A DNA stretch of 63,933 bases, counting the filler, from Chrysochromulina tobinii (lineage: Eukaryota), in assembly GCA_001275005.1 (NCBI GenBank). It is 6 parts of 6 records of this genome, joined end to end, with 100 filler letters (N's around TTAATTAATTAA, not from the genome) between each part and the next. Parts side by side here need not be neighbours in the genome. Positions count along the whole stretch, not along the records: positions 31,109 to 44,032 come from JWZX01001004.1; 5 more parts are not named here. One strand, 5' to 3'. Made by a program: the position numbers and the translations under genes. Numbering within the stretch: position 1 is the first letter of the stretch; every line of letters begins with the position of its first letter. Under the pieces are notes generated by a model. It did not search any database. It saw nothing but the letters and a program-made list of their open reading frames with translations, and was not told where the DNA came from. Positions 4,677 through 52,548 of the stretch are shown here, piece by piece.

Positions 4677-7600
4677 CTACGCATCAACATCCACGCGTTG
4701 GTCAAGTAGAATTCGGCGCATGCCCGCAAGCGACGCCAAGCGGCCGCCAAACTGGCCCTTGACGGCCTCATCGACCCCGCGCACGAAGGCACGCAGCATT
4801 GGCTTGCACTCGGGTCGCCATGCGCACCGGCGCTCGACGAGGCGCCCGAGGCATGCCACGTCATCCAACCGACACGCCTGCACGAGCGCGCGAGCATAGG
4901 CAAGCAGCTCGGTGGGGTCGGGTGGGTTGATGGGGGCGGGGCGGGCGGCGGTTTCCATCACCTCCACTGCCACCACCGCCTCATCCTCTTCGTCCACCGC
5001 CGCCTCCGCCGCCTGCGTCGCCTGCGCCGCTTGCGCCACCGCCGCCTTCGCCGCCTTCGCCGCCTTCGCCGCCTTCGCCGCCTTCGCCGCCTTCGGTATC
5101 GGCGTCCCCCGCGCGTCCCCAACGGACGAATGCGGGCCACAGCCATGCCGCTCCAGCCACGCCCCAATATGAACGCGCATCTCGTCCCAAGGCTCAAGCA
5201 GCTGAGGCGCGGCGCCCGCGACGGCGCTTGACCGCGCGTCGACAGCCGGGGGGCGCGCCCGCGACGGCGCTCCCACCGCTGCCCCCCCCTCGTGCGGGTC
5301 ATTGCCCACGACGGCGCCGTGGGCGTGATCACGCACGGGCCAGTCTGCGGCCGGTGCGTGAGGCGATGGCCCCTTTCTCGAGCCTCCCCGCGCGCCGCCC
5401 GACACAGCGCCGCCCGATACAGCGCCGCCCGACACAGCGCCGCCCGCTGCGGCGCCGACCGCGGCGGTGGGTGGGGCAAGCGACCAGTATCGCTGCTCAA
5501 ACGGCGAGCGGCGCGGCGGCTCCGCCAGATTGCGCGAGATTGGGCGGCCGCGCGAGGCGACGCCCATATTAGGAATAGCAGCTGCCGGACGCGCCATCGG
5601 CGAGCGCTGCGGTGAGCGCGGTGGCGCCGTGATGGGCGCGATCGCAAGGTTGCGCTCGGTTTCGCAGAGGCTGCACGTGAGGAAATCGCGTTGCGCTGGG
5701 TCTACGTGCTCGTAGGTGCACACCTGTGGGGAAGAGGGAGGTGGCGCCGTGGTGAGCGCTTGCATGCCCCGGGGTCTACGTGCTCGTAGGTGCACACCTC
5801 GCATTTCCAGCCACGTGGAGAGGACGCGCCGTGGTGAGCATGCGATGCGCCGCTGTGAGCACATGTGCCGTACGCGGCACCGGCCCCTGTCCCATCAATG
5901 AACGAGGTCGCCGCCGCCGCCGCGGCCACTGCCGCCGCGGTGGCTTGGCGCTTCTGCCGCTGCCTTGCCAACTCGAGACGAAGCGCCTCACCTGATGAAG
6001 GAGACCATCAGAGGTCATCAGAGGCAATCAGAGGCAATCAGAGGCAAATCAGAGGCAAATCATCGCTCGAGACGAAGCGCCCCACCAGGGGCGCCCTCAA
6101 TCTCATCGATGGTCGCCTCGTCCACTTGCGAGCACGAGGGGAGGTGCCAATCTCCGGGGAGGTTCCAATCTCCGGTGGTGCGGAGCTCGCGATCTCCGGG
6201 ACGGAGCTCGTGATCTCCGGTGCGGAGCTCGAAGTCGCCCTCGAAGTCGGAGCCGCGCCCAACGGATGGCCGCACCTCTGATGACCCACTAATTACCCCT
6301 GATGACCCACTAATTACCCCTGATGGGCGCACCTCCGTACTCGTACTGCCGCCGCCGCCGCCGGTAGTGCACTGCCGTGACGCCGCCTGCTCCGGTGGAG
6401 CGGTCATCAGCGGTAATTAGTGGGTCATCAGCGGTAATTAGTGGGTCATCAGGGGTAATTAGTGGGTCATCAGGGGGTAATTCGTGGGTCATCAGGGGGT
6501 AATTACCTGCGCCGGTGGAGCGGCCGGCGGCGGCGCGACGGCCTTTCGTTTGCCATGAGCGAAACTATTGTGGGCCCCTGGCTGCGCAGAAGCGGGTGGC
6601 CATGCTGTTTCCTCACATGCATGTGAGGCCACCCGCGGCAGAGCTTCGGGCCAGGGGCTACTCGCCGCCTTGATCAACGCCTCAGCTGTGGCCCGTCCGA
6701 ATCGAACGCTCAGTGCCGAAACTCCGAGGCTCATTAAGTCCCCACAAGTCCGGAGACCCTCGGAAGTCAGCTGCAGGCATTCCTCGATCCGCAGAGCCGG
6801 CAGCAGGGCCATCACTGGCCGGCCCATGAGAAGCGCCTCCATGTCCGCAGATGAGCGGATCCATCGCACGCTACCCGAGGCTCCCGTCCGCACCGCCACA
6901 CTCGCAGCCAGGATGGCCGTCGTCACATCGGCGGCCACGCCCACGCCGACGGCCGTCAGTAACGGCTCTGCCGCCTCCGCCGCCGCCACCGCCGGCGATG
7001 CCGCGGCATCCGCCGCCGGCGTATCCGCCGCAAACTCAAGGTGCGACGACGAAACCCTAGTTGTGGAACCACGGAGACTCCCTAATATGGAACCGTGGAA
7101 GTTGCCTAATATGGAGCCATGGAGGCTGCCCAGAGCCTCTTCGGACACGTCTGTCGGCCGCAGCGGCTGCAGCAGCACCACTTGGTCCGCGAGGAGGGGA
7201 TAGGCCGATCTCGATGCATGCGGCCACTGCGCGCCGAGCGCTCCGACGAGCTTCTTCTTCATGGCATCCTCCACCGCCACCGTCGCAGACGTAGAGAGGT
7301 CGCCGAGGTCGGGCAGGGCTCGCACGCTGACGAACCATGCTGCCCCATTCGGCACGCTGAACAACGGTACTTCCATATTAGGCACGCTGCCGAACAATGC
7401 CGCCGGCGCAGCGGCCGCGTTGACAGCAGCGAGAGCATGGGCAGCGGCCAGGTGATCAACGTCATCAGCCATCACTTCGTCCACGTCCGCAACATCCATC
7501 TCCCATGCCGCCTCTGCTGCCACCTGTGCTGCCACCTGCGCTGGCGCTGGCGCTGGCGCGGCTGCCGCCTCCTCTCCTACTGCCTCCGCTGGCGGCTCGG

Positions 7601-25710: not shown

Positions 25711-28700
25711 AGGGCGGCGGCGGCAGGCGCGGCGGCGAGGGCGGCGGCGGGGGCGGCGAGTGCAGGTCCAGAAGCACCACCGTCAGCCTGTCGGCACGAG
25801 ACGCCGCCACGTAAGCGTAGGAGCCGCTCACGGCGACGGCATGAGCCTGTGTGTGCACAGCACGTGAGGGCGAGCGAGTGAGAGCGCGGAGGACATCAGC
25901 GGCGGCCGCGCCGCGGGTGCAAGCATGATGGACAAAGCTAAGGGCCACACGTACCCCATCCAGAAAGGACGAGGAGACCACGCTGCCACGGATGACTGGA
26001 GACGCAGGGTTGCTAATGTCGACTACCACCAGCGAGTTGGAATTCCACGCCGCCACGTAAGCGTAGGAGCCGCTCACGGCGACGGCTATAGCCTGTGTGC
26101 ACAGCACGTGAGAGCGAGCGAGTGAGAGCGCGAGAGGGCATCGGCAGCGGACGCACCGCGGGTGCGAGCATGATGGACGGGTGCGGACGCAAGCGCGACG
26201 AGCCTGCGCCCGAGTTCAATCACGGTCGCAGCTCCGCGTCGCACGCACCTGTTCAAGAAGAGACGATGAGACCACGCTGCCCCGGATGACTGGTGACGCA
26301 GGGTTGCTAATGTCGATCACCACCAGCGAGTTGGGATACTGCCCCGTCACGTAAGCGTACGAGCCGCTCACGGCGACGAAAGTCGCCTGTGCACACAGCA
26401 CGTGACAGCGCGCGCGCGAAAGCACGAGAGGGCATCAGCGGGCGTGGCGCCGCGGGCGCGAGCACGATGGGCGGGGCGGACGCATGGCGCGGCGCCTGAG
26501 GCCATCCGCGGTCGCAGAATTGGGTCGCGCGCACCCCATAAAGAAGAGACGACGAAACCACGCTGCCCCGAATGACCGGAGACGCAGGGTTGCTAATGTC
26601 GACCACCACCAGCGAGTAGGAAGTATGCCCCGCCACGTAAGCGTACGAGCCGCTCACGGCGACGTGCATAGCCTGTGCGCACAGCACGTGACAGCGCGCG
26701 CGTGGAAGCACGAGAGGGCATCAGCAGGCGGTGGCGCCGCGGGTGTGAGCACGATGGGCGGTGCCGACAAAAGTGCGGCGCCCGACGCCATCCGCGCCGC
26801 AGCTCCGCGCTTCACGTACATCCAGAAGAGACGATGAGACCACGCTGCCACGGATGACTGGAGACGCAGGGTTGCTTATGTCGACCACCACCAGCGAGTC
26901 GGAATTGAGCGCCGCCACGTAAGCGTAGGAGCCGCTCACGGCAACGCCAGCAGCCTGTGTGCACAGCACGTAACAGAGAGCGAGTGAGAGCGCGTGAGGG
27001 CATCAGCAGGCGGTGGCGCCGCGGGTGTGAGCACAACGGGCGGGGCGGACGCATGCAGCGGCGCCCGACGCCATCCGCGCGTGCAAAGCACCAGGCCGCA
27101 CACGCACCCCATCCAAAAGAGACAACGAGACCACGCTGCCGCGGATGACTGGAGACGCAGGGTTGCTAATGTCGACCACCACCAGCGAGTCGGATAGAAA
27201 CGCCGCCACGTAGGCGTACGAGCCGCTCACGGCGACGCCATAAGCCTGCGTGCACAGCACGTGCGCGGGAGCGAGAGAGAGTGCGGCAGGGCGAGAGGGC
27301 GGGAGGGCGGGAGGGCATCAGCGGCGGAGGCGCCGCGGGGGCGAGCATGATGCACGGGGCGGACGCAAGCGCGACGAGGCGCAGCGCGGTGCCCAAGTCA
27401 GCCGCGGTCGCAGAATAGGGTCGTGCGCACCCCATTAAGAAGAGACGACGACACCACACTGCCCCGGATAAATGGAGATGCAGGGTTGCTAATTTCAACC
27501 ACCGTCAGCGAGTAGGAATAACGCCCCGCCACGTAAGCGTACGAGCCGCTCACGGCGACGGCTATAGGCTGCGTGCACAGCACGTGACTCGCGAGCGCGA
27601 GAGGGCATGAGGGGCCGTGCAGGTGGGCGAGCAAGCTCGAGGGGCGTGGGAGCGCGGCGCGGCGTCCGAGGTCAATGCTCAGGGTCGAGTCGCACGCACG
27701 TAATCCAAAACGGACGCCGAGGTGACGTTGCCCACGATCGACCCGGAGCCCACGATGAGATCCAGAAGCACCACCGCCAGCGAGTCGGACCCAAGCGCCG
27801 CCACGTAAGCGTACGAGCCGCTCACAGCGACGCCATAAGCCTGTGAGCACAGCACGTGAGGGCGAGCGAGTGCGCGCGAGAGGGCTTCAGCTGGCGGTGG
27901 CGCCGCGGACGCGAGCGAGATGGACGCAGCTCCAGGCTACACGCACCCTATCCAAAAGAGAAGACGAGACCACGCTGCCCCGGATGACTGGAGACGCAGG
28001 GTTGCTAATGTCGACCACCACCAGCGAGTTGGAATACTGCCCCGTCACGCAGGCGTACGAGCCGCTCATGGCGACGCCAGCCGCCTGTGAGTAAGGGCGA
28101 GCGAGGGAGCGCGAGAGGGAATCAGCAGGCGGTGGCGCCGCGGACGTGCGAGCACGATGGGCGGCGCGGACGCATGCCCCGGCGCGTGCAAAGCTCCAGG
28201 CCGCACGCACATAGTTCATAAGAGACGACGATGCCACACTGCCACGGATGACTGGAGACGCAGGGTTGCTCACGTCGACCACCACCAGCGAGTTGGATAG
28301 AGCTGCTGCCACGTAAGCGTACGAGCCGCTCACGGCAACGCCAGCCGCCTGTGCGCACAAAACGTGCGAGCGAGCAAGTGAGCGCTCAAAGGGGGCATCA
28401 ACGGCGGTGGCGCCGCGGGTGCGAGCACGATGGGCGGAGCGGACGCAAGCGCGGCGCCCGAGGCCATCCGCGCGTGCACCAGGCGGCACACGCACCCCAT
28501 CCATAAGAGAAGACGAGACCACGCTGCCCCGGATGACTGGAGACGCAGGGTTGCTAACGTCGACCACCACCAGCGAGTCGGAATATATCGCCGGCACGTA
28601 AGCGTACGAGCCGCTCACGGCGACGGCTAGAGCCTGTGTGCACAGCACATGAGAGCGAGTGAGAGTGCGAGAGCTTCAGCGGCGGTGGCGCCGCGGGTGC

Positions 28701-29913
28701 GAGCGTGATGGACGGGGCGGACGCAAGCGCGGCGCGCCCGACGCCATCCTCGCGCGCAAAGCTCCAGGCCGCACACGCACCCCATTCAGAAGAGACGACG
28801 AGACCACGCTGCCCCGAATGACTGGAGACGCAGGGTTGCTAATGTCGACCACCACCAGCGAGGCGGAAGCATGCGCCGCCACGTAAGCGTAGGAGCCGCT
28901 CAGGGCGACGCCAGCAGCCTGTGTGCACAGCACGTAACAGAGAGCGAGTGAGAGCGCGAGAGAGCATCAGCAGGCGGTGGCGCCGCGGCGGGCGCGAGCA
29001 CGATGGGCGGGGCGGACGCATGCCACGGCGCCCGAGGTCATCCGCGCGCGCGAAGCACCAGGCCGCACACGCACCCAATCCAGAAGAGACGATGAGACCA
29101 CGCTGCCACGGATGACTGGAGACGCAGGGTTGCTAATGTCGATCACCACCAGCGAGTCGGAGTATTCACCCACCACGTAAGCGTAGGAGCCGCTCACGGC
29201 AACGGAACGAGCCTGTAGCACATGAGAGCGCGAGAGGGCTTGAGCAGGTGGTGGCGCTGCGAGGTCCTAACGAGCATGATGGGCGATCATGATGACGAGC
29301 ATGATGGGCGATGCGGACGCAAGCGCGGCGCGCCCGACGCCATCCGCGCGCGCAAAGCTCCAGGCCGCACACGCACATGGTCCAGAAGAGATGACGACAC
29401 CACGCTGCCACGGATGACTGGAGACGCAGGGTTGCTAATATCGACCACCACCAGCGAGTCGGACCCCTGCGCCGTCACGTAAGCGTACGGGCCGCTCACG
29501 GCGACGCCATGCGCCTGTTTGCACAGCACGTGAGAGCAAGCGCGCGAGCGAGTTTGGGAGGGCATGAGGGGCCAGGCAGGTGGGCGAGCATGCTGAAGGG
29601 GTGGGAGCCCGACGAGACGAAAGCGCGCGGGCTCGAGGTCTGCACGCACGTAATCCATTAGGGACGAATTGAAAACGCTGCCCACGATCGACCCGGAGCC
29701 CACGATGGTTGTGGAGTGCGCGAGCTGCCGCCCATCATGCTGGCTGCTCGGGAGGGCTCGTCCGAGCTCCGTCGAAGGCGGTCGCGGGCTGAATCCGCCG
29801 TCATCGGGCGCAGGCGGGAGCGGCGGAGGCGGCACTACGGTCAAGAGCGGCGGCACAGGCGAATGTGCCGAGGCCGTCACGGCGACGATCCCGTGCAGTA
29901 GTCCTCGAGCCAT
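25711..29913 (-). CDS. secreted/surface LVIVD-repeat protein, 14 repeat exons (2x7) plus proline-rich stalk; 3' end lost in gap
   Basis: AxxVAVSGSYAYVxxxxSxSLVVVDISNPASPVIRGSVVSSSLLD in ~138-nt phase-0 exons (e.g. 26092-25955) with related introns; hydrophobic N-terminus; SPPPPPP tail. Confidence 0.88.
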
Positions 29914-31008: not shown

Positions 31009-31108
31009 NNNNNNNNNNNNNNNNNNNNNNNNNNNNNNNNNNNNNNNNNNNNTTAATTAATTAANNNNNNNNNNNNNNNNNNNNNNNNNNNNNNNNNNNN
31101 NNNNNNNN
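31009..31108. other. artificial contig linker
   Basis: 100 nt N spacer with TTAATTAATTAA. Confidence 0.95.
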
Positions 31109-32624
31109 TGGTGCTTGTTCGAGCTCGTCAAGGCGCTCGCCAAGGGCGCGACGCTGCACGTGGTGCTCGCGCCCGCGGACGTGGACGGCTTCGCGGAGCT
31201 GCTGACGTATGAATTTGACGAGATTGCGGGCATCGTGGCGGGCATGCCATCGACGCGGCCGACGCGCAGATCACAATAGTCGAGGACCGCGACTACATCC
31301 TGGCCGAGGTGGCGCAGCTCGAGGGCGGCATCGGCGCGGTGACGGCGACGGTGTGCGCGTCGCTGCGCGAGTGGCTCGCGGCCGAGGGCCGCGCGGCGCT
31401 GGCGCGCATGCCGCGCGAGGAGCGGGCGACGTCGGCGCTGCAGAACCAGCTGGGGAGGCTGCTGCAGGCTCAGGGCAAGCTCGACGAGGCGGGCGTGCTG
31501 CTCCGCGAGGCGCTCGAGGCGAGGCGTGCGACGCTCGGCGATCGTCATCCGAGCACCCTTGTCTCGATGAATAATCTGGGGACACTGCTGCACGCCCAGG
31601 GCAAGCTCGACGAGGCGGGCGTGCTGTACCGCGAGGCGCTCGAGGCGAGGCGTGTGACGCTCGGCGATCGGCATCCTAGCACCCTTAGCTCGATTAGTAA
31701 TCTGGGGGGGCTGCTGTATGACCAGGGCAAGCTCGACGAGGCGGGCGGGCTGTACCGCGAGGCGCTCGAGGCGAGGCGTGTGACGCTCGGGCGATCGGGC
31801 ATCCGGGGCACCCTCACCTCAATTAATAATCTGGGGGAGCTGCTGCAGGACCAGGGCAAGCTCGACGAGGCGGGCGTGCTGCTCCGCGAGGCGCTCGAGG
31901 CGAGGCGTGCGACGATCGGCGATCGGCATCCGGGCACCCTCCGCTCGATAAATAATCTGGGGTTGCTGCTGCAGGACCAGGGCAAGCTCGACGAGGCGGG
32001 CGTGCTGCTCCGCGAGGCGCTCGAGGCGAGGCGTGCGACGCTCGGCGATCGGCATCCGGGCACCCTCCGCTCGATAAATAATCTGGGGACGCTGCTGCAG
32101 GACCAGGGCAAGCTCGACGAGGCGGGCGTGCTGTACCGCGAGGCGCTCGAGGCGAGGCGTGCGACGCTCGGCGATCGGCATCCGGACACCCTCGGCTCGA
32201 TTCATAACCTCGGGCGGCTCCTGCACGACCAGGGCCGGCTGGGCGAGGCCGAGACCTTGCTCCTCGAAGCACACGACGGCTGCGCCGCGACGCTCGCAGA
32301 GGGCCAGCGCACCCGGCTGCGCTCGCAAGCCGGGCTCGCAGACGTGCGACGCGCGCAAGGCCGCATCGAGAGCGCCCGCGCGCTCGTGGATGCACGCGTG
32401 CTCATCACGGCGCGTGCGGCGCTGGGCCCGACGGTGGACACGACGCTGCTGCTCGAGGCCGTCCACGCCCGGCTCGAGTGCGCGGCAGGCGGAGGGCTCA
32501 GCCCGCTGAAAGCGGCCCTCGAACGCATGTGAGGACCGTCCTCGGGCCGGAGCACCCTGAGACGCACCGCTGCGCAGAGGCGCTCTCGCAGGAGGAAGAG
32601 GCCGCCAGGTCCCACAGCGTATAG
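31109..32624 (+). CDS. kinesin-light-chain-type TPR repeat protein with N-terminal WCLFE (TIR/HET-like) segment; partial, with apparent frameshifts
   Basis: about seven 42-aa repeats (QGKLDEAGVLxREALEARRATLGDRHPxTLxSINNLG); WCLFEL at the contig start; frame breaks near 31245 and 32530. Confidence 0.8.
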
Positions 32625-33087
32625 GCACTTCCTGACGAGATGGACCCGGCGTGACATGCGGCGTTGAGCACGGGCTGATCGGGATGATGAGGGTCTCTCA
32701 GTCACTGGCGGAGGGTACAGTTTCACCGTACCATGCGATGGGCCCCGGCGCTCGGCGGGCTAAGGCGGACCGCCGTGCCGCGTGCGCCGGTACGGTAACC
32801 AAACAGCCGAACCGCTGGCGTGCGCGTAACCTATACCGCATTTCTAAGCTCGCGCTACACATTTTCACATTTACTCGTACGCGGTCCTAGTGAAGTTGTA
32901 CTACACCACCGTTCAGTAACGCAAGAACCTATAAAGTCGCTCCACCGCCGCAGTCTTCAGATCTCCCCGTGAGATCTCCCGCCCGAGCGTACCGAGAAGA
33001 GCCACCTTTGACTAACCTCCTGTGATCGAACCATCATCGTCCGGCGGCCCGCTCGAGGCTGCCACCTGCACCTCTCTCATCGTCGAG

Positions 33088-36000
33088 CTACGTACTTGAC
33101 GCCTGGCCGGCGTAATTGGGCACGACGTAGAGCCGCTCCCGAGCCAGCTGACGCTCCTCTGGTGAGAGGACGCGCTGTGGCCGCTCCTGCACCCAGCGGC
33201 GCGCCGATGTGGCCCAGGTACGCCGGCGCGCCGACTGCACCTGCCGACGTGCCGACTCGCTCAAGTAGCCAGGGCCAGAGGCTTGGGCGCGGTCGACGAG
33301 CGTCGTGCCGATCGCTCGGGTCGTCGGTGCATCTGGAGACACGAAACGGCCGCTTACCGGCCGGACCGATCGGCCCGAGACGAAACCGCCGTAGCCCACG
33401 TACATCTCGCCACCGCCCGAGACGGCGCCGCCCGGGACGGCGCCCAGAGCATAGTCGGGCTCGTCCGCGTAACTGCCGATCGCGTACCTGAGGAGAGAGG
33501 CAATCAGTGTCAGCAGTGGTAATCGGAGGTCATCAAGAGGCCATCAGGGCTCATCGCGTACCGTGAGCGCGCATCGAGAGGCCAGCCGTCCTTATCCAAA
33601 GCGGCCGACGGGCCGTGAGCGCTCGAGACGGCGCCCCGACCGCGCGCCGGGTCGGTTACGGGTCCCCCCACCGAGGACCTACCGGCCGACGACCAGCCCG
33701 ATACGGCGCTATCGACCGATACGGCGCTGCACCCGCCGCCGGAGTGGCCTCCACCGCTCGAGACGGCGCCTCCACCGCTGCGGCCGTACCGACGACGACG
33801 CATCCCCTCCACCTGATGAGGGAGGCAATCACCTGATGAGTGACTCACTTGATGAGGGATGTCATTCGAAGCGACGCATCTCCTCCACCTAATGAGGGAT
33901 GTCATTCGAAGCGACGCATCTCCTCCACCACCTCCTGCTCATCCGTCATCATCCGTCATCATCCGTCATCAGAGGTCATCAGAGGTCATCAGAGGTCATC
34001 AGAGGTCATCAGAGGCCATCAATCCACCTCCTCCTGCTCATCCGTCATCAGAGTTAATCAGAGGTCATCAGAGGTCATCAAAGGTCATCAATCCACCTCC
34101 TCCTGCTCATCCGTCATCGGCTGCGCCTCGTCCGCAGGCCTCTGCTTGCCGCCCGGCACGGCGCCCGGGCTGCTGCTGCTGCTGCCGCCGCCACCGCCCT
34201 CGCCGACGCCCGACACGGCGCTCGAGATAGCGCCCGAAACGGCGCCGCTGCTGCCGAATCCAAACCAGCTGCCGCCGCCGCCCGGCACGGCGCTTGACGA
34301 ATCTCGAGGGGGGCGGGTTGAGGCGGGAGAGGGCGAGAGCGCGCGAGATGTGATCTCGGCGAACGCCTGCCGAGAGAGGAGATGACCATGAGAGGAGATG
34401 TAATCAGAGGCACTCGGAGGCACTCAGAGGGCACTCGGAGGCACTCTAAGAGGCAATCAAGAGGCAATTAACGAGACTCGCCTGCCGAGAGGAGAAGACG
34501 GCCGAGTAGGCGCTGCCGAGTAACCGCCCGCGCCGCGAGGCCGCGTCACGTGCGTCGGCGCGGCGCTGCTCTTCGGCGGAGGGCGGGTAGGCGGGCTTGG
34601 GCGGCGGCGGGGAGGGGGGGCGAGCGGAGGGGCGCGCCGAAGGGCGCGGGATCGACCCGGCGTACCTGTGGGGAACGAGGTGGGGTGAGGCGGCGCCGTG
34701 GTGAGCGCTTGCATGCGCGGGCGGCCAGCCGGGCGGCGCAGGATCGGTCCTGTGCGTGCCTGTTGGTCGTCGACAGAGGCGGTCGGCCACTCGCCGCGTC
34801 GCCCGTCGTCGCGGCGGCCGTGCGCCCTACAAGGTATTTGGCTTGGTCGAGCGATCCGAATCTCGCCGTCCATCCTGTCGACGGCTGGTACGGTGGGATC
34901 TGGCCTGGCGACGCCGCGTGCTGCGGGTGGCGCGCCGAACCGCGCCGTGCCGAGCGCGCCGAAACGCGCCGTGCTGAGCGCGCCGTACCGCGCCGTGCCG
35001 AGCGCGCGCCGGGCGCCTCGTCGCCGCTGCTGCTGCTGGCCGCCGGCGGGCTCGCGTCGTGTTGGGCGCTTCCCGCGGGCTGCCGTTTGGAGAAGAAGCC
35101 CCAGCCGTTACCTTTTCGGACGTGCGGCTCGGCCGCGCCCGGGACGGCGCCTGTACCGCCGAGCGTGCGGAATTCCGCCTGAAGCTGCGCAAGGGTCTGA
35201 GCCGGATGGTCCACAGTCGGCTTGCGCACACCCTCCTTCACACCCTCCTTCACACCCTCCTTCACACCCTCCTTCACACCCTCATTCACACCCTCATTCA
35301 CACCCTCCTTGGCTCTTGGAGCCTCGGCTCGCTCGGCCGTGCCCGCCGCAGCGCGCTCGGTTTTGGCCGCGCGCTGCTTCATCGCGGTCCGTGCACGCAC
35401 CTGATGAGGGAGGCAATCAGACGTCCTTCGATAGATGAGGGAGGCAATCAGACGCCATCAGGGGCGCTGATGCTCGCACCTTGGGAATCAGACGCAATCA
35501 GACGCACTCAGACGCAATCGGATGCAATCAGACGCAATCAGACGCAATCAGACGCACCTCAGCGGCTGCGAGTGCAGCGCGTGCCTCGGCCACGGCCCGC
35601 AAGGCAGCGTCGGCGTCGGCGTCGACGTCCTCAGGGGCGGCAGGGGATCCTGACTCGGCGTCCGTCGGCGCGGCCAAAGTTGCCTTACCCGCACGCTGCT
35701 GTGCGGGCCGCTGCTTCCCTGCTGCTGCTGCTGCTGCTGCTGCGGCTGCTGCGGCTGCTGCTTCCAGTACGTCGGTGACGCTCGCGTGCCCGCGCCGGCT
35801 GGCCCACGCCGCTGCGTCGAGCCCCCACTCATCGGCCAAGTCCGTACGAGCGCCACTGCTGAGCAGCAGCTGGGCGATCTCCGCATGACCTCCCATGGCC
35901 GCGAGGATCAGCGGTGTGCGGCCGTCGGCGTTGGCGGCGTCGACGGAGGCGCCGCGGCGGAGGAGCGTCTCGACCGCACGCACCTCGCCCTGGAGGACGG

Positions 36001-36220
36001 CATAGTGCAGCACCGTCGCGCCCATCAGATTGACCATGAGCTCGAGCTCCATGTTGGGCGCCATGCTGGACTGGCAGCAGCGGTACGACAAGCGGCACCA
36101 CGCGAGCATCCACGCCGACGGAAAGGAGATCATGCCCTCGCGATACACGAGCTCGTCGATGCGTGCCGGGTAGATGCTCGACACTCGCTCGAGCTTGATC
36201 AAGCCGCGCAGGCCCGCCAT
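33088..36220 (-). CDS. ankyrin-repeat protein with long low-complexity tail; introns 35401-35557, 34666-34759, 34367-34481, 33813-34096, 33488-33561
   Basis: GATVLHYAV, GRTPLILAA and GLDAAAWA ankyrin repeats; predicted introns (two with GC donors) join the ORFs in frame. Confidence 0.75.
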
Positions 36221-36616
36221 TTGCTGCCGCGTGCGCGTCGGCGATGGACTGGTGTTGGAGCGGACCAAAAAAGGCGTTTCGTGTGTAGGACAAGTTCCAA
36301 GTTCCACATAAGTTTGCTCTCAAACTTTCGCGCGATTTGACTCGAGAGGTCGTTTCTCTCGGGAGGTTCACGGTGGGACAAAACGACAGCACACGCGGTC
36401 ATGACACTCGGTGTGCGCGCGCCGGGGGCGGGTCCGCGGTTGGCGGTACCGCGGACGGCGGAGCCGCGCTGTGCTCTCCGCTCGTCTGTGTGTGTCTCGG
36501 GGTTTCTGTCTCTTCACCTGGGTGTGCTTTTCCGCAGTCTCCAACGTTCGCGCACAAGAATATATACATCTCGCGTGCAGGTCTGATCTCGAGGCGCATC
36601 TCGCGTGCAGATCCGA

Positions 36617-37600
36617 TCACAGCCCAAAGGCGCGCTGGATCTTGAGCCGGAACACTGTGGGGATCTCGGCGGGCAGAGCATTCGACTGGGCCAGCAGGAA
36701 GACGTCGTCGACGCACCTGATGAGCGAGGCAATCAAACGTCTTCCGATAGATGAGGGAGGCAATCAGACGCCATCAGACGCCAGCAGGAAGACGTCGTCG
36801 ACGCACCGGCATCCATACGCGAGGACCTGCAGCGACGCAATCAGACGCAAGCAGACGCAAGCAGACGCAATCAGACGTACCGGCATCCATCCGACGAGAG
36901 GAACTGCAGCGCGGCGTACGCGTCGGTGGCGGAGAGCCCGGCGGCTTGCTGCAGCCACCCAGCGACCGCGTCGAGCTCCGGTCCAGCCTGGGCGGGTGCG
37001 GGGGGCGCCGAGTCGCGCGTACGCCCCAAGGCGCGCTGTGCCGGGCCCCTCTGCACCGCCTTTGGAGGGAAGGTGAAGCACGAGATCTGAGGCTGGTACG
37101 AGGACTTGGAGTCGCGAAAGGTCTGCGAGAGGGCGGGATTGGGGCTGCTGAGGGAGGGGCAGGGGCTCGGAGGACGGACGCCGCGCCAGTCACGGGGGAA
37201 TGCGCACCTCCACATCGTGGTCATAGTAGACGGGCTTCGTCGCCGCAGCTTGGTAGGCGATCGGCGGCACCCACTCGACGGGTGGAGGCGGCACCGGCTG
37301 CTGCTGCTGCTTATACAGCGGCGGCTGCCGTTTGATTGCCTGTGGGCCCGACCACACATTGAGCTCCGTCTGATGCGTCGACTTGCGGTCCCGGAAGCTC
37401 TATGGCGCGAAAGCGAGTCGACCGCGAGCCGTGAGCCTTTCGGTGGGTGGCGCGAGGCGTTCGTGTGCTGTGCGCCTTGTGCGCGCACACCTCGTGGTCG
37501 TGGTCGTAGTACACCGGCACGGGTGCTGCCGCGCGCATGCCGGGCACCTGCGGCATCGGCCTGGCAAGCGCCGGAGCGACAGCCACAATGAAGGCAAGCA
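36617..37600 (-). CDS. hypothetical protein with SAM-like C-terminus; intron 36717-36880; 5' structure uncertain
   Basis: VAGWLQQAAGL..GCR|CVDDVFLL..IPTVFRLKIQRAF after splicing. Confidence 0.4.
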
Positions 37601-37922
37601 TTTTTCGAAGATTCCCGATTGGAAGTCCGCAACGCGTCGTTATGAGTTTTGAGGCTGCAGGCTCCGAAATTAACGCTCGGCTGACTCTGTCGAAGGCAAG
37701 TGTGTGGAGCATCCTCTTCGCCAAAATGACTGCTGACACCACGCACCCGCGCCTCGGAACGGAAAGATCTTTCTTACTGCACAACTGCAGGTGCCCACGC
37801 AAATGAAACAAATGAAAAGCCTCAACGGAACGGAAAGATCTTTCTTACTGCAGGTGCCCACGCAAGGCCAACTGAGCAGTAAAGTGGGGGAATCTAGCAA
37901 ATGAAACAAATGAAAATGCTTT

Positions 37923-39800
37923 TCATGAACGGTTCGCCTGCTTGAGCCGCACACGGCTCAGAAGGCTGCCCAGGCACGCTTGCATCGCCTCACACAAGGC
38001 CGCCAGCGGAGCCTCGCCATGAGTCACGCCGCTGCTCTGCGGCTGCTTGGCTGCGCTCAAGAGGGAAGGAGCATACTCGCCCGTACCTGTGGGGAGCGAG
38101 GCGCCGTGGTGAGCGCTTGCTTGCACTCAAGAGGGAAGGAGCATACTCGCCCGTACCGGTCGCATACTGCCACGCGTTGAAGGCCGAGTTGGCCGCCCGG
38201 TACTTGAGCTTCTGGAGCGCCTCGGAGAGCAGCCGTACCATCTTTTGACGCTGCCACGTGTACTCCTCCCATGAGTGGAAGCCTCCGGCGAGCTTGCGAT
38301 GCAGCATGTGGCCCATGCTAGCCTGCAGCAGTTGCATGTGCCTGGCGCGGCTCTCGGCGAACAAGAGCCACGAGTTCCACCCCTTGGCCAGTTGCTGCTG
38401 GGGCAGTCGCTTCAGCGCCTGGCGGCCGATTTCGTCGATTCGCTCCGCACGCTCCTTGCGTGCGCGGCTGCTGTCGCTCATCTCGCCCTCGGGGCTGCTC
38501 GGGGGAGATTCAATCTCGGTTTGGGCGAGATCGCACGGCGTGCCGGGCTCGGCGGTGCCTTCGAGCGCGGCGTACTGCTGGCGCACGACCCTCGCCTTCG
38601 TGGCAGCCTTTGCGCGGCATCGCTTCATGCTCGTAATCAGGGCATCGCGCTCGTGCCGTAGCTCATCGCCCTTCTTCTGCATCGCTTTGAGAGCTACACT
38701 GCATTCCTTGGCGTCGAGCCTGCCGCTGCCGTCCGCGTCGATCACGTGAAAGAGCTCAGCGGCCTGCATGTGCGCGGAGGAGTCGAGTAACAGCCCACTG
38801 ACCATATTTAGAAAGTCGCCCTCGGTGAGCCCTTCCGAGCTGCTCGCAAACTGGCCCACAAAGTCCGCCGCCTTGATGCGCCGGCGCGTGCAAGCGATGC
38901 CGAGCTGCACCTCCAGATCCGCCTCCATCTCGCGCTTCTGTTTCGTGAGCTCCGCCTCCCGCCGATCGGCCTCCTCTTCAAACCTGATGAGCGAGGCAAT
39001 CAGACGCCTTTCGATAGATGAGCGAGGCAATCAGACGCAATCAGACGCGATCGGCCTCCTCTTCAAACCTCTCTCCTTCGGCCGCGTGGATGGCGAGCTC
39101 GCGTAGCTTGGTGGCTTTGACGGCGAGCCTCGCGCGCACCTGTGGGGAGAGGGGAGGGCGCCGTGGTGAGCACTTGCATGCATAGCTTGGTGGCTTTGAC
39201 GGCGAGCCTCGCGCGCACCTCAGCCTTGGACAGGTTGATCGCGCAGCCGACTGCCTTCAAGTCGACTAGGATCGTCTTGAGCTCGATCGAGCTCAGCATG
39301 CCCGACTTGCCCTTGTCGTACGTGTCGAAGAACGCGTCAATCTCCTTGGTCTCGAGATCGAACGGCTCCTGCGGCCGATACTTGGCGAAGAGCGCTTTGA
39401 TCCGCATCCGAAACTCGGTCTTCAGCACGCTGCCGCTGTTTGTTGGGTCCCACGCCCGGAGCTGTGCCGGCACATCGACATTCGCTTCAGCCAGAAGCTC
39501 CCGCAGCCTCTCCGCCGCCCCCTGCTTGTGAGGCTTCTTGTCGCCCTCCAGCGCTTCGGCCTCGGCTATGAGCTGGCTCGAAGTCAGCCTCGTGAACTCC
39601 GTGAGTGCAGGCGCAGCCTTGCACACGTTCTGGAGCCCGGCGAACGTGCCTCGGATGGCAACCGCAGCTGGTGGAGAGTAGAGGCCCAAGGGGGCTTCAC
39701 CTTGCGGCCAGAAAGAGCGCAGCCTGGAAGATTTGATAAAGAAGCGCGAGGTCTGGCGCGGCGTCCAGATGTGGGGGGCGGCTGCAGTCGGCGACGGCAT
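37923..39800 (-). CDS. EF-hand/coiled-coil protein; introns 39140-39218, 38984-39068, 38087-38156
   Basis: EF-hand loops DPTNSGSVLKTE, DKGKSGMLSSIE and DADGSGRLDAKE; intron removal restores one frame. Confidence 0.82.
38984..39068 (-). mobile_element. candidate intron-generating insertion, family A (type example)
   Basis: perfect 23-nt direct repeats (38963-38985, 39048-39070) flank CTGAT-repeat filler ending CTGATTGCCTCGCTCATCAG; related ends occur in more than 10 introns. Confidence 0.65.
39140..39218 (-). mobile_element. candidate intron-generating insertion, family B (type example)
   Basis: perfect 38-nt direct repeats (39104-39141, 39183-39220) flank a 41-nt GCATGCAAGTGCTCACCACGGCGCC..CCCCAC module that recurs at 5724, 34666 and 38087. 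Confidence 0.65.
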
Positions 39801-39915
39801 TCGCGGATGCGCCGAAGAAAGCAGTGCAGAGCAGAGCGGGGAGCGGTGACCGAAGGAACTTGTTGTTCCCCGTCGTGAGTACGGACAGGGAGCAGCTCGC
39901 GCACGGCCGTCACAG

Positions 39916-40701
39916 GAAATTGGAAAGTTCAACCTTTTCCGATATGTTTCCTTCTAGTCCAAAAATAGAAATGTTCGTTGGCATCGCAAGCGACGCTTCT
40001 TCAGCCATCCCCGCTCCAACTAAAGGAGACGACATGGGGCTAGACGTGCAGCCATGCACCAAGGAGCACGGCCATGCGCATGGTGCGCCCAAGTTTCGAA
40101 ACTTGCCAGGCGCCGTGTCGGCCGGTACGAATACGGCCGAACGAGAGCAGCAGCGTGGGTAAGGGCGGAAGGTGCCCTTGGGAGCGCTGTGGGCGCCGAC
40201 ACGGCAAGTCTGCCGAAAGCAGCAAGTTCGGGGAAACTTGCGGAGCGCGTATATCGCCCGCGAGGGCGAGGGGGGGGCGCGAACGGCGCGGCCTGTACAG
40301 GTGTGGGTGGGTGGGGAAGCAAGCGGCGCGTACGAGCCGACGGCTCGCCAGCGCACTTGCTCTGATCCCGTGCGCGATGCGTAGACGCCGTACGGCGCCG
40401 TTGCTCGCTCCCCTGCGCGCGCGCCATGGGTTTGAGCGGGGCCGCGGCTCCGCGATCACAGCGTACAATCGCACCCACCATGGGTGCGATTGTACAAATG
40501 CCTGAGGGGAGAGTGTGTGAATGAGCTTCAGAGGGAGGCCCGTCAGAAGTAGTTTAGCTACGCGGTAGCTGCACTGTCGAAATTGGAAAGTTCAACCTTT
40601 TCCGATATGTTTCCTTCTAGTCCAAAAATAGAAATGTTCGTTGGCATCGCAAGCGACGCTTCTTCAGCCATCCCCGCTCCAACTAAAGGAGACGACATGG
40701 G
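39916..40701. repeat. 123-bp direct repeat (39916-40038 and 40579-40701)
   Basis: two identical, comparatively AT-rich copies 540 bp apart. Confidence 0.9.
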
Positions 40702-43276
40702 CAAGCGCCGCCGCCGCCCCGCGCCGCCCACGACCAGAGGCTCCATGACCAGCTCCACGACCAGCTCCACGACCACCTCCTTCATGTGCGTCCACAGCTT
40801 CATGTGCTCCTTCCGCCTCCGCAGCAGCCTCCGCAGCAGGCCCTTCGCAAGCCGCAACAGCTGGCTGCTCGTAGTACACGTCCACGTAATAGGCAGGGCA
40901 ATCCGCGCCTGCCTCCACGTGGCACCGTACCTGATGAGGGAGGCCATCGGGGGCCATCGGAGGCAATCCATGCCTGCCTCCACGTGGCACCGCACCACCT
41001 CGAGCGTCGAGGGGTAATCAGAGGTGATCATAGGTAATCATAGGTCATCAGAGGCACCGTACCTCGAGCGTCGAGCCGCCCGCCAGCCAGAGCGCTGTCT
41101 CGAGCAGGCGCACGTACCTAATATGGCAAGAGCAGTGGCACTCAAGAGAGAGGCGCGAGAGCGCCGTCTTGAGCGGCCCCACGTACGAGCACTCCCAGGC
41201 TGTGCAATCAGTTGCAATCAGTTGCAATCAGGTTTATTTACGAGCACTCCCAGGTTGTGTCCTGCGCACGCGCATGCATCGAACGGGGCCCAACCGTTGA
41301 GGGAGATCGGTGGGAGATCGGAGGCAATCAGAGGAGATCGGAGGGAGATCGGTGGGAGATCGGAGGCCGAACCAGTGGCAATCAGAGGCAACCTCACCTG
41401 CGCGTAGGCATCGAGCGTGCACGAGGCGTCGAGGTCGATACATAAGTGCAGGTGCAGACCATCAAAATAGCTCCCCTCGGCACCAACTGCCATCAGACGC
41501 AACAACCAGCAGACGCAATCAGAGGCAATCAGACGCACTCGAACGCACTCGAGCGCGACCATCTGACGCAATCAGAGGCCACTCAGGGCCAATCAGACGC
41601 AATCGGAGGTCATTAAGAGGCCATCCTGAGGCCAATCCGAGACAATTACCCACGAAGCGGCACGTGCGCTGCTGCTGGCTCGGCAATCCGATCGCAATCT
41701 CCGGCGCGTCGAACGTATACGTCTCGAACGGTTGGGGCGGCGCGATCATGTACGACGCGGGCAGCCGCTTGAGATGGTACATGCATCCGGCGGCCGCGGG
41801 GCACTCCATCGCCCTGATGAGGGAGGCAATCAGACGCCATGAGAGCATGCACTCAAAACCAGCCAGCCATTCGACCGCGTGCGTCCGTTTCCACACCGGA
41901 CTGTGCCGACGGCGTCCGGGGGTAATCAGAGGTAATCAGAGGTAATCAGAGGTAATCACACCGGACTGTGCCGACGGCGTCCGGGGGTAATCAGAGGTAA
42001 TCAGAGGTAATCAGAGGTAATCACACCGGACTGTGCCGACGGCGTCCGGGGGTAATCAGAGGTAATCAGAGGTAATCAGAGGTAATCAGAGGTAATCACA
42101 CCGGACTGTGCCGACGGCGTCCGGGGGTAAAGGACGGGTAGGTGCTGTGAGCGATGAGGGACGATGAGGGGCGGTGAGGGGTGATGAGGGACGATGAGGG
42201 ATGATGAGGGACGATGAGGGATGATGAGGGACGATGAGGGACGATGAGGGACGGTGAGGGACCCTCATACGAAGCAACTCAATCGCTCTCACCGACCATC
42301 GTCCGCGCCGCGCGAGGCACAAATTGGCAATTGGGGACCAGCAGACCGGCGCGTGTACGCAGCTCGCGGAGAGCTTTGACGACGCCTTCGGCTGAGGCGA
42401 GGTGCCCGAGGATTTCGTGCACTACAAGCTGCCAAATTAGGAAGGTGTCACGATTAGGACGAGGCGATGTGCTCGAGGATCTCGGGCTGTGGGGACTCAA
42501 GCTGTGGGATCCCCAAGTAATCCGTCCCAATCAGCGCTCGTCACGCACCTCAATCTGACCGGGCAGCGCCGTTGTCGAAGAGAGGCCCTGGTATAGGGCG
42601 ATCGTGCGGCCATCGCGGGCGCCAGTCGCAAGGGCGACGCAGCCTGCGGACACGCCCGGCTGCCCAACCGGCGCCGGGCACGCGAGCTCAAAGTCGTCGA
42701 GCTGCGCGCCCAGAAAGGCGAGCTGCCCGAGGAACTGAGAGCACTCCTCATCGAGGGCACCGTCGACGACAGTCCAACCATATTTGGAACGTCTTGAGGG
42801 CGCTTCGGAGCGCGCCTCGCGCTTGAGGATCTCAAGGGCGAGCGTGACCGAACGGCTCGAGTGCTCGACGCAAGCAACGAAGCTCGCGCCGCAGCGTTGC
42901 GCGATGCGCGCGAGCACCATGAACGGACCGGTGCCCACGTCCAGAACACGCCGGCCAGGCGCGGCGCGCTCCAGGGCCTCGGTGAAGGCTGCCAGCCGAG
43001 GCACGTCGGAAATGAGGCTGTGGTGTGCGCCGGCCGTGTACTGCTGATTCTTGGCCGAGACGGAGCAGCCCCAGCGAGGCACCTCGCGCAGGTCCAATCG
43101 CATGTTTTTTTGTCTTTGGGTTGCCCCGACAGGCGGTCCGGCGGCCCCCCCTCGTGTCCTTTTCCTGGATTATCTCCGGTGATGGGATGGCTTCTCCGTA
43201 CCTGCAGTGCCCGAGTGTAATTTGGGTCCATTTTTGCAACGACACACACACGGAACACCGCCCTCTTGGAAGCCAT
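40558..43276 (-). CDS. protein arginine methyltransferase-like SAM-dependent methyltransferase, multi-intron; boundaries uncertain
   Basis: HHSLISDVPRLAAF, VLDVGTG, ACVE, VVHEILGHLASAEG, FDGLHLH. Confidence 0.65.
41892..42130. repeat. compound tandem repeat in an intron: 31-nt exon-junction copy alternating with (TAATCAGAGG)n, 4 copies
   Basis: cacaccggactgtgccgacggcgtccggggg occurs four times. Confidence 0.9.
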
Positions 43277-43341
43277 TTATGTTGCAATGATAATACACCA
43301 AGCGTTCAAGTAGCAACGAAACACCTTTCGAGCACTATAAC

Positions 43342-43427
43342 CCCCCGATAGCTCAGTTGGCAGAGCGGAGGACTGTAGATGGTTTCAGCATATCCTTAGG
43401 TCTCGTGTTCGACTCACGGTTGGGGGA
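43342..43427 (+). tRNA. tRNA-Tyr(GTA) with a 13-nt intron (43379-43391)
   Basis: cloverleaf: CCCCCGA/TTGGGGG acceptor stem, GCTC/GAGC D-arm, GAGGA-CT-GTA, TTCGACT T-loop; T6 Pol III terminator at 43432-43437. Confidence 0.95.
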
Positions 43428-43471
43428 TTACTTTTTTCAAGCTCTCTCGGCTTCTTCCACGGCTCTAATCC

Positions 43472-44032
43472 TCAGATCCATTTCCTGTAAAGTTGGCACT
43501 CGCGAGTTCGCCTCTCGAGCCTTTCGAGCGCGAACTCCGTCGGAAACACCAGGCCCATCGCCAGCTCTCGCTCAACGGGTGGCTGCAGCGTTCCATGCAG
43601 AGGAAGCCGAGGCGCAGGCTGCATCGCCACACTCTCCTCTTCTTCCGCCCTGAAAGCAGCGAGTTGAGCTTCCATCATTGCATCATCTTCCTCTGGGTGC
43701 AGTGCAACCGATGCAGCGCCTCCAGCACGTGGCAGCGCACCGCCGTCTGCAGGAGCGCGGCGGCCCATGAGTCGAAGCCCTTGCTGCCGCAGCCACCGAA
43801 ACCGCGCTTGGAAAGGTACGTGATGAAGCGTCGGACGTCCTCGTTCACGTTCACCAGCACTGAGAGCAAGAGCTTGGCGGAGCTCCTCCTCTGCTGCTGC
43901 GGCCTCGAGCGAAAAGGCAATTTTTGCTCGGAGGTCGTCATCCATGTCATCTCCGAGAACGTCAGCAACTCGGGCGGCAGCGGCCGGCGGCGGCGGCGGC
44001 GGTGGCGGCGCCGGCGCCGGCGCCGGCGGCGG
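43472..44032 (-). CDS. partial hypothetical protein with UIM-like helices after a proline-rich stretch
   Basis: DDDLRAKIAFSLE, EEELRQALALSAGE; ORF runs into the gap. Confidence 0.45.
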   Translation of the reverse strand, partial: PPPAPAPAPPPPPPPPAAAARVADVLGDDMDDDLRAKIAFSLEAAAAEEELRQALALSAGERERGRPTLHHVPFQARFRWLRQQGLRLMGRRAPADGGALPRAGGAASVALHPEEDDAMMEAQLAAFRAEEEESVAMQPAPRLPLHGTLQPPVERELAMGLVFPTEFALERLERRTRECQLYRKWI

Positions 44033-44132
44033 NNNNNNNNNNNNNNNNNNNNNNNNNNNNNNNNNNNNNNNNNNNNTTAATTAATTAANNNNNNNNNNNN
44101 NNNNNNNNNNNNNNNNNNNNNNNNNNNNNNNN
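44033..44132. other. artificial contig linker
   Basis: 100 nt N spacer with TTAATTAATTAA. Confidence 0.95.
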
Positions 44133-50600: not shown

Positions 50601-52548
50601 GCGCCCGATACGGCGCCCGATCCGCCTCCCCCTGCTTGGCCAGCAATCCCCCTCCGCGCGGGAGCATCCTCGTACCTGATTACGGAGGCAATCAGTTGTC
50701 CGTCAGTTGTCCATCAGTTGTCCATCAGTTGTCCATCAGTTGTCCATCAGTTGTCCATCAGTTGTCCATCAGTTGTCCATCAGTTGTCCATCAGTTGTCC
50801 ATCAGTTGTCCATCAGTTGTCCATCAGTTGTCCATCAGTTGTCCATCAGTTGTCCATCAGTTGTCCATCAGTTGTCCATCAGTTGTCCATCAGTTGTCCA
50901 TCAGTTGTCAATCTCACTCCCGCGAGAGCATCTTCGTACCGGGGGCCTTCTCGTCGCCGTCACCCGTAGGCCTGAGGCCGAGGCCGAGCTTGAGGGCGCC
51001 GTTCTGGGCGCTGCCGCCCGGGCTGAGGGCGCCGTTCTGGGCGCCGTCTGAGCCGAAGCTGACGCGCGGCGCCGTCCCGGCGCGGCGGCTGCCAACGCTG
51101 CTGTGGGCGCCGCCGCTGCCGCCGCTCATGTTGGTGAACGGTCGTGAACGGCCGCCGGTCGCAAGCACCTCCTCATCAGCGCTCGGCGGCACCGACGAGG
51201 AGACAGTGCCATCGGACGCGAAGCGCACGCTGCCAGCGCTTCCGGAGCTGTGAGTGTGAACGGAGCTGCTCATCGCGGCGGGCGCGGCAGGGATTGCATG
51301 CGTGGTGGTCGACACACCACGTGCCGACACTGGCGGTGTGAAGGGCAGGCTCAATGGCGGTGGCGGTGCGAAACCCAACGGCAGCGTCGTGGCGAGCGCC
51401 GCGCGCACTCGCCCCTGCCTCGCCGCCTCCGCCGACGCCTCCGTCGACGAAACCGTCGACGAAACCGTTGACGAAACCGTCGACGACGCGGCGTGTTGGG
51501 CGCCGTTGGCTGTTTCACGTCGCACGCCCTCGGCGCTGAAGCGCACGAGACCAGCCGTCAATTCCAAGGTACGCGAGGGCGGCGGTGGCGGCGGATGGCC
51601 GGCTGCGCCAAGCCGAGGCGGCGTGCCGAGGACCTCGTACTCCGACGCGGGAGGGTGTGCACGTGAGTGTGAACGCGAGCGCGTGGCGGCTGGCGAGGAG
51701 GGGGCTGGGATCAGCAGCGACGAGGCGCCGTCGCCCAGATCGCTAGCCAGATCGAGATCGCTAGCCAGATCGCTCATTGGGCGCAGCCCTCCCGCGTTAC
51801 TGGCGGCCGCGGGCCAGTGGCGCACGGGCCCCGCCAGAGGTTCACGTGTCGGAGAGAGGCTATGTCCCTGGTCCGTGTCCACTGGCTGCCAGCGGCGCAC
51901 GGGTGAGGGTGCTCGCTTGGTCGCCGCGCCGGCGAGCACCGCCTGCTTGTTCGCATGCTCACCGAAGAGGCGCTCGAGCTTAGCGGCGGAGCTGCGCGTG
52001 TCTGTGAACTGCTGCGCGAGCACGACGACCGCCTCAGGCACATTCGACGCACCGTCGGGCGGCACGACGGCGTCGGGCGGAGCTGGCCAATCCCACCGCC
52101 TCTCGTTCAGCTCCGTGTTGTAATAGTAGGTGCGGCCCGCCTCCGTCTGGGCCTCCTTCCACCCGTTGGGCAGCGGCCTCCACTCCGGAGCTGGATTGGT
52201 AGCGGCAGCATCGGCGGTGGAGGCTGAAGGACGCGGCCGCTCTGGGCTCGCGTTTGCGTGCTTCCGTACTCTCTGGGCAGCAGCAACTTCGTAGACCCAC
52301 TTTCCATTTCGTAATATGGGCGCCTTTTTCGGCTTGCCTTCCTCGTCGACAAGGTTACCCTCCTTGTCGCGCAACTCCCCCTTTGCAATCAGGTCGGCCA
52401 CAGACTCCTCAGTCTTGGTCATGCCGCCGAGGTCGCGGCCACGGATGACCAGGCCCGAAGTGGCCAGTGGCGCGATCGCAGCGCACGCGTCGGCCACCGC
52501 GGCTATCGCCTTTTTGGTGGAAGGTTGTTGGTAGACCTGTCGCACCAT
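47686..52548 (-). CDS. multidomain protein: WW, low complexity, HET/TIR-like, RNI-like LRR, Rab-like GTPase; intron 50676-50939
   Basis: LPNGWKEAQTEAGRTYYYN..WDWP; IIVLSCPWL..HP..FWDY; LQLAGNPITDEG; YDHLFMVVLLGDAGCGKS, PTIGVE, LQLWD; splice CCC G|GT ACG joins both ORFs in frame. Confidence 0.78.
50691..50909. repeat. 11-nt tandem repeat (CATCAGTTGTC)n, about 20 copies, intronic
   Basis: direct reading. Confidence 0.95.

What the first reader, a model, noticed from the sequence alone, without database searches (positions are those of the whole stretch)
36690..36890. Introns that contain a copy of their own spliced exon-exon junction
Seen: intron 36717-36880 holds ATGGATGCCG|GTGCGTCGACGACGTCTTCCTGCTGGC (36780-36816), i.e. 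the upstream exon end fused to the downstream exon start. Similar internal junction copies occur in 40931-41062 and 33813-34096. Inference: either two insertions bracket the original uninterrupted site, or repair was templated from mRNA or an intron-less allele. Either way it is a mechanistic fingerprint, and it creates cryptic donors.
Basis: partly seen in the sequence, partly recalled or inferred. Interest (0 to 1): 0.75.

Follow-up and report, generated by a model that had tools for sequence, protein, structure and literature searches.

The report
Introns seeded from neighbouring introns
This algal intron carries a copy of the very exon join it interrupts, likely the scar of two successive local copy-and-insert events, the first of which likely created the intron with a splice signal copied from a nearby intron, a route to new introns that I could not find described.

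Summary
Intron 36717-36880 (minus strand) contains a 53-nt copy of its own exon junction. RNA contigs of four runs splice it at the outer donor, and a DNA run tiles it without differences.

It is one case of a genome-wide pattern in a haptophyte. Of 157 acceptors, 81 have the start of the downstream exon copied upstream, and about a dozen hold a full junction copy (swap control 1 of 470).

In 8 of 15 junction cases the intron start and the internal copy share changes that the exon lacks. This favours two steps over an mRNA template: an acceptor module inserted with a 13-55-nt duplication, then a duplication across the donor.

Modules resemble those of neighbouring introns: 18.8 of 70 best matches lie on the same contig, against 1.15 expected. 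The focal module has sisters in the two adjacent genes only.

The likely mechanism is microhomology-guided local template switching; half reverse splicing is the main rival. No enzyme is identified. The scan had already noted the simple duplication footprint elsewhere in this genome (e1-2577349); junction copies, ordering and local seeding were not in that note's listing.

The parts
36717..36880 (-). Focal intron, 164 nt, GT..AG
   Evidence: RNA joints in X15, X16, X17, X18; DNA tiling in X9
36881..36909 (-). Upstream exon end (A), the part that is copied
36833..36880 (-). Outer donor (first 7 nt match the downstream exon start at 6 of 7) followed by 10-nt repeats
36807..36832 (-). Internal copy of upstream exon end (A'), 2 substitutions and a 3-nt deletion
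36780..36806 (-). Internal copy of downstream exon start (B'), 27 of 27 identical; starts with the inferred former donor GT at 36806
36717..36779 (-). Acceptor module (CTGAT-type repeats, local sub-motif CTCATCTATCG, terminal CTCATCAG)
36690..36716 (-). Downstream exon start (B)
35401..35463 (-). Sister acceptor module in the adjacent ankyrin-repeat gene; its downstream exon shares 6 nt with B
38984..39068 (-). Simple-type predicted intron (21-nt exon copy plus sister module) in the adjacent EF-hand gene; no RNA joint seen
39140..39218 (-). Simple-type predicted intron, 36-nt exon copy plus second module class (CACCACGGCGCC..CCCACAG)
38087..38156 (-). Simple-type predicted intron, 31-nt exon copy, second module class
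40931..41062 (-). Second junction-copy intron, 132 nt
   Evidence: RNA joints X15, X16
33813..34096 (-). Third junction-copy intron (predicted), with repeated internal duplications
   Evidence: splicing not shown
34367..34481 (-). Predicted mirror-type intron: GC donor, repeats, acceptor AG supplied by a copy of the upstream exon end
   Evidence: by eye
5724..5797 (-). Simple-type predicted intron on another contig of the window, 26-nt exon copy
50676..50939 (-). Simple-type predicted intron with a long 10-nt repeat expansion

Best explanation
The intron holds a copy of its own exon junction, likely because two local duplicate-and-insert events hit the same site: the first likely created the intron and the second likely re-copied the stretch across its donor. 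Step 1 (inferred): synthesis runs 13-55 nt past an exonic G|GT, switches by a few bases of microhomology to the 3' end of a nearby intron, copies it to its AG, and rejoins at the G|GT. The result is exon A, copy of B, acceptor module, exon B; the copied GT serves as donor and the protein is unchanged. Step 2 (inferred): a stretch spanning the new donor is duplicated with 10-nt repeats between the copies. The outer copy keeps the donor and the inner copy reads A'|B'. I take the engine to be DNA break repair or replication slippage with local templates, filtered by selection for spliceable products. Shown: the anatomy, splicing at the outer donor, the class frequency, local similarity of modules and the microhomology excess. 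Inferred: order, direction of copying, the enzyme, and that most such sites are gains.
For: 50 of 107 distinct acceptors carry a downstream-exon copy; controls 1.25% of 11,342 swapped pairs and 0 of 106 for a more distal exon stretch. In 52 simple cases the copy starts with GT in 44 and follows G in 42 (a few of the 52 are poor alignments). Order: shared outer/inner changes in 8 of 15, no AG at the upstream exon end in 9 of 15. In L056 the shared change comes with a frame-breaking insertion in the inner copy while the exon reads in frame in a family-A DNA polymerase. Local source: best module partner on the same contig for 18.8 of 70 sites against 1.15 expected, permutation p 0.001; private 12-mers in 6 of 78 same-contig pairs against 66 of 9,652; CTCATCTATCG at 35439, 36755, 39022 and nowhere in 127 kb of loci. 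Microhomology 2.6 against 1.5 nt, 30 cases, p 0.002. Gain: in repeat protein L096, 2 of 8 units have an intron, at different unit positions, sharing a module core found nowhere else. DNA-level signs: inverted local inserts in L118 and L114, mirror-type introns, and a duplication anchored at a GT in 63 of 171 repeat cores against 1.4% in swaps.
Against: 123 of 137 acceptors face coding-like sequence in sense, and all 23 repeat arrays of the window lie in genes in sense by my reading. An orientation-blind DNA process should leave more intergenic and inverted inserts. The focal inner A' is more diverged than B', the opposite of the simple two-step expectation. No simple-type intron of the window has an RNA joint, so use of the copied GT as donor is inferred. 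No clean presence/absence allele was found. The second module class shows no clear local effect (3.0 of 10 against 1.7), and there is no distance trend within contigs (rho -0.04). Shared outer/inner changes lie in the donor region and were compared without gaps, so some positions are inflated.
Confidence: 0.55

Rival explanations
1. Step 1 is half reverse splicing. A spliceosome still holding a neighbour's excised intron joins the RNA 3' end to the non-template DNA strand at a G|GT; the free DNA end is extended, making the duplication; the RNA is partly reverse-transcribed and joined by microhomology. Step 2 is as in the best explanation.
For: Exact AG ends, sense and genic placement and local sources. 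One intron (L003) begins with 19 of 19 nt of another intron's start in the same gene and shares its 3' end. Precedents: R-loop model (PMC4540971, passages); linear group II introns ligate only the 3' end and finish by end joining with Pol theta (PMC3280974, abstract).
Against: It does not explain mirror-type introns, duplications across donors or inverted inserts. [quoted passage not shown] The L003 start also resembles its own downstream exon loosely.
Confidence: 0.22
2. An old intron was patched from spliced mRNA (cDNA) or an intron-less allele, an aborted intron loss that left the junction inside it.
For: In the focal intron the inner 27 nt equal the exon and the outer start differs at one base. 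A relative's RNA at 41204/41397 matches the register of an internal copy.
Against: Shared outer/inner changes in 8 of 15 cases. No intron-less DNA joint in X9. It does not explain module sharing between neighbours or the L096 positions.
Confidence: 0.1
3. A dispersed mobile family (MITE-type introner, or a short RNA mobilised by a non-LTR retrotransposon) inserts with a long target-site duplication; local similarity reflects local hopping.
For: A shared terminal motif in an estimated 2,400 stored stretches. Introners that carry the 3' site and co-opt the 5' site from the duplication are known. Variable duplication plus 5' microhomology is typical of non-LTR insertion (recalled). CTGATGA and TCATCAG are complementary (by eye).
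Against: Duplications of 13-55 nt vary in length, against 3-8 nt fixed per class in the passages read. Only the last 15-45 nt are shared. Two unrelated module classes behave alike. No partner enzyme was sought or found.
Confidence: 0.11
4. Assembly artefact from repeats.
For: No single contig or long read spans the whole intron.
Against: Copies are diverged, a DNA run tiles the intron without differences, RNA joints match its ends, and the pattern recurs in many assemblies.
Confidence: 0.02

Closest known systems
Introners that carry the 3' splice site and recruit the 5' site from the target-site duplication (Symbiodinium; Polarella classes 4/5/6/8/10; bioRxiv 10.1101/2020.10.14.339549 and 10.1101/2022.06.06.494994, passages)
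   Same: Acceptor imported, donor GT taken from duplicated exon sequence, protein unchanged.
   Different: Duplication here is 13-55 nt and variable, not 3-8 nt and fixed; only the 3' end is shared; modules track neighbours; later duplications create junction copies. The Chrysochromulina sp. introner in that paper has a 4-bp duplication and carries the 5' site.
Intron gain by double-strand-break repair (NHEJ model, PMC3020277, passages) and tandem duplications with in-cis templated inserts from Pol theta end joining (PMC5730883, passages)
   Same: Direct repeats at the borders, microhomology, locally templated filler, repeated rounds at one site.
   Different: There the events are sporadic with arbitrary filler; here about half of the module-bearing acceptors show the footprint and the filler is another intron's 3' end.
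Reverse-splicing models: Micromonas introner R-loop model (PMC4540971, passages) and linear group II intron retrohoming (PMC3280974, abstract)
   Same: Sense-strand genic insertion, precise 3' end; in the linear group II case an imprecise 5' junction made by end joining.
   Different: The R-loop model inserts whole introns cleanly; here there is a long duplication, a partial copy, and mirror and inverted products.

Membership tests
DNA-transposon introner (MITE-like) | Interspersed introns similar over their whole length | tested here: not met
   Only the terminal module is shared; 5' parts are local exon copies
DNA-transposon introner (MITE-like) | Short duplication of fixed length | tested here: not met
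   17-55 nt in 35 clean cases; 13-50 in 52
DNA-transposon introner (MITE-like) | Terminal inverted repeats | not tested
   A 7-nt complementarity between a repeat word and the terminal motif was seen by eye only
DNA-transposon introner (MITE-like) | One splice site carried, the other co-opted from the duplication | tested here: met
   Copy starts with GT in 44 of 52; donor use itself not shown by RNA
Any introner | Presence/absence at orthologous sites | tested here: inconclusive
   1 of 8 same-site pairs lacks an 81-nt intron (L105/L116) but L116 may be an RNA assembly; paralogous repeat units in L096 differ
Reverse-splicing (RNA-based) introner | Sense orientation inside genes | tested here: met
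   123 of 137 sense; 23 of 23 window arrays by my reading
Reverse-splicing (RNA-based) introner | Whole intron copied, no duplication | tested here: not met
   81 of 157 have an exon copy; one candidate whole copy, L003
Break-repair (NHEJ/TMEJ) intron gain | Direct repeats and junction microhomology | tested here: met
Break-repair (NHEJ/TMEJ) intron gain | Locally templated inserts in either orientation | tested here: inconclusive
   Local source met; only 2 inverted cases among 135 loci
Break-repair (NHEJ/TMEJ) intron gain | Dependence on Pol theta or ligase 4 | not testable with these tools
   needs genetics
Non-LTR (SINE-like) insertion | Partner reverse transcriptase/endonuclease and a shared 3' tail | not testable with these tools
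   No whole genome held

The most novel reading that the evidence does not exclude
This haptophyte makes new introns on a genomic scale without any transposon: the spliceosome half reverse-splices a neighbouring intron's 3' end into DNA, host repair duplicates 13-55 nt of exon to supply the donor, and introns spread from gene to adjacent gene like a local contagion.
Probability: 0.22. Interest if true: 0.92.

Novelty: new variant of a known kind. Interest (0 to 1): 0.7.

Why it matters
How new spliceosomal introns arise is a long-standing question, and about 72% of introner families have no assigned mechanism (PMC12130899, passage). Here each event leaves a datable duplication, a traceable source next door and, in junction-copy introns, a record of order. 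A full genome would allow source-to-copy genealogies and a direct choice between DNA repair and reverse splicing. In practice, the internal copies and repeats can mislead gene prediction and short-read assembly in these algae.

Tried and rejected
No whole genome was held, and the records behind the loci could not be searched, so the survey rests on 135 loci from 4 of 64 parts of the metagenome collection plus the window. The scan pattern imposed GT after the AG; among 39 non-anchor acceptors GT follows in 26 and GC in 6.

Viral contigs: one hit for the second module class (L136); the first-class scan did not complete. Rfam over 33000-44000 gave only a tRNA.

A homolog search with an L062 exon found nothing, so polarity there rests on the reading frame only. 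A short L056 exon gave no useful PDB match. Homologs of the host protein were not obtained, so it is open whether the inner A' copy preserves an older coding state.

Source and target exons do not clearly share longer starts (3.4 against 2.3 nt, p 0.10). The search for whole-intron copies gave 20 same-contig hits, 19 of them trivial. Divergence of A' against B' does not order the events (by eye). Lack of RNA cover at 38087, 38984 and 39140 is not evidence either way. A hammerhead-like reading of CTGATGAG was considered and dropped: no Rfam match.

Full report
Setting. The window is six contigs joined by N-linkers; the finding lies on 31109-44032. GC is 0.56-0.70. A gene on another contig of the window has Prymnesium parvum as its nearest named relative at 50% identity, so the host is a haptophyte. 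Runs that hold the stretch are mixed-culture and freshwater samples. A Chrysochromulina-like identity is my guess and was not tested.

Observation. Write A for the upstream exon end and B for the downstream exon start. Intron 36717-36880 reads: donor and 10-nt repeats (48 nt), A' (26 nt), B' (27 nt), acceptor module (63 nt). RNA contigs join the outer donor to the acceptor in X15, X16, X17 and X18; this splice gives an open frame, while the inner donor or retention gives an early stop. No inner-donor joint is listed in the complete table, though contigs lose rare forms. DNA run X9 tiles the intron in three overlapping pieces with no differences and no intron-less joint; it may be the same strain as the window. 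40931-41062 is spliced likewise in two runs; 33813-34096 has the anatomy but no joint was shown.

The class. A scan for the acceptor motif returned 135 loci from 4 of 64 parts of the metagenome collection. From 166 raw matches I kept 113 terminal acceptors with flanks, 107 distinct. Of these, 50 have B copied upstream, against 1.25% of swapped pairs and 0 of 106 for a more distal exon stretch. With broader motifs and the window, 81 of 157 do; the 157 include at least one false acceptor, at 51179. In 35 clean simple cases (A, B', module, B) the copy is 17-55 nt, 32 introns are 65-94 nt long, and copy and module lengths are anticorrelated (rho -0.45, p 0.007). A second, unrelated module class behaves the same way: 13 of 15 have a B copy. 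Mirror introns, whose acceptor comes from a copy of A, also exist (L062; L029 and window 34367-34481). Full junction copies were flagged at 14 of 157 sites against 1 of 470 swaps; two look false and the script missed others found.

Order. I compared the outer intron start, the inner copy and the exon in 15 hand-picked junction cases, 12 from loci and 3 from the window. In 8 the two intron copies share a base the exon lacks. In 2, including the focal one, the inner copy sides with the exon against the outer start. In 9 of 15 A does not end in AG. In L056, a family-A DNA polymerase gene, the inner copy is out of frame while the exon is open, so the shared state is derived. The acceptor-side event therefore came first and the stretch across the donor was duplicated later. 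An mRNA template would have refreshed the inner copy. The focal intron alone cannot decide this, and its A' is the more diverged half.

Source of the module. Among 140 first-class modules, the best match lies on the same contig for 18.8 of 70 sites that have a neighbour, against 1.15 expected; the exons beside those pairs are unrelated. High similarity occurs in 15 of 64 pairs within 4 kb, 1 of 14 beyond, and 4.7% across contigs. The focal module's sub-motif occurs three times in 3.6 kb, in three adjacent genes (ankyrin and EF-hand neighbours), and nowhere else in the window or loci. In L096, a protein of eight repeat units (MORN-like, label recalled), two units have introns at different positions that share a private module, which argues for gain by local copying. 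Junctions between B' and the module show excess microhomology.

Mechanism. Microhomology, local templates, inverted inserts in L118 and L114, mirror introns and duplications across donors point to DNA-level template switching filtered by selection (0.55). Strict sense and genic placement (the codon model was trained on window ORFs), exact AG ends and one apparent whole-intron copy about 2.4 kb from its source keep half reverse splicing alive (0.22). A dispersed mobile family (0.11), an mRNA or allele template (0.10) and artefact (0.02) trail. No enzyme was identified.

Against and open. No simple-type intron has RNA support here. Eight same-site pairs from different assemblies show repeat-number changes but only one ambiguous intron absence. 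The second module class shows no clear local effect.

Literature. Ten searches found no description of junction copies, long variable duplications or neighbour-derived acceptors in haptophytes; the library lacks most subscription papers. I read passages of Gozashti 2022, Gozashti 2025, Roy 2020, Hovde 2015, Farlow 2011, Simmons 2015, Ares 2024 and Schimmel 2017; part 1 of 5 and passages of Mikina 2024; and the abstract of White and Lambowitz 2012. I opened no supplements; the introner family tables could list this motif.

Verdict. Real, spliced as predicted, and part of a genome-wide intron-building process that works like an introner but fails the tests for membership in the known classes. 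New variant of a known kind; interest 0.7.

Noticed in passing
window 25611-25710, 31009-31108, 44033-44132, 55299-55398, 59010-59109: Artificial N-linkers: the window is six unrelated contigs joined end to end.
   Followed up: yes
window 41200-41397 (-): Intron with a degenerate junction copy; a relative's RNA (X15) joins 41204 to 41397 with one extra base, in register with the inner copy, whereas splicing at the window's own AG would drop 7 nt. Unexplained.
   Followed up: partly
window 41814-42100 (-): RNA-supported 288-nt intron holding three extra copies of the upstream exon end separated by 10-nt repeats.
   Followed up: partly
window 14032-14222 (+) and 62379-62600 (-): Further remodelled introns: a duplication across the donor with the inner GT changed to GC, and an exon copy plus module added behind an existing acceptor.
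   Followed up: partly
L118:250-445 and L114:86-165: Acceptor modules inserted in inverted orientation; the L118 insert copies a nearby exon site, now uninterrupted, in an intron-bearing form.
   Followed up: partly
L055-L057: A family-A DNA polymerase gene (best PDB match polymerase nu) packed with module-type introns.
   Followed up: partly
window 39915-40045 and 40575-40702: A duplicated intergenic stretch of about 130 nt.
   Followed up: no
window 37770-37960: Short repeated intergenic element; DNA depth in X9 jumps to about 770 at 37860-37963.
   Followed up: no
window 15880-17340 (+) and 25710-29700 (-): Repeat-protein genes with near-identical introns at the same position of each unit, of a different, module-free type.
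   Followed up: no
window 60120-60750 (+): Several mutually similar introns of another family within one gene.
   Followed up: no
window 60690-61898 (+): ORF with an NAD:arginine ADP-ribosyltransferase domain (PF01129).
   Followed up: partly
window 43342-43427 (+): tRNA gene.
   Followed up: no
window 59111-59280 and 63745-63933: The same 15-nt tandem array at both ends of the last contig.
   Followed up: no
L136: A contig filed as viral carries the second acceptor module, probably host DNA.
   Followed up: no
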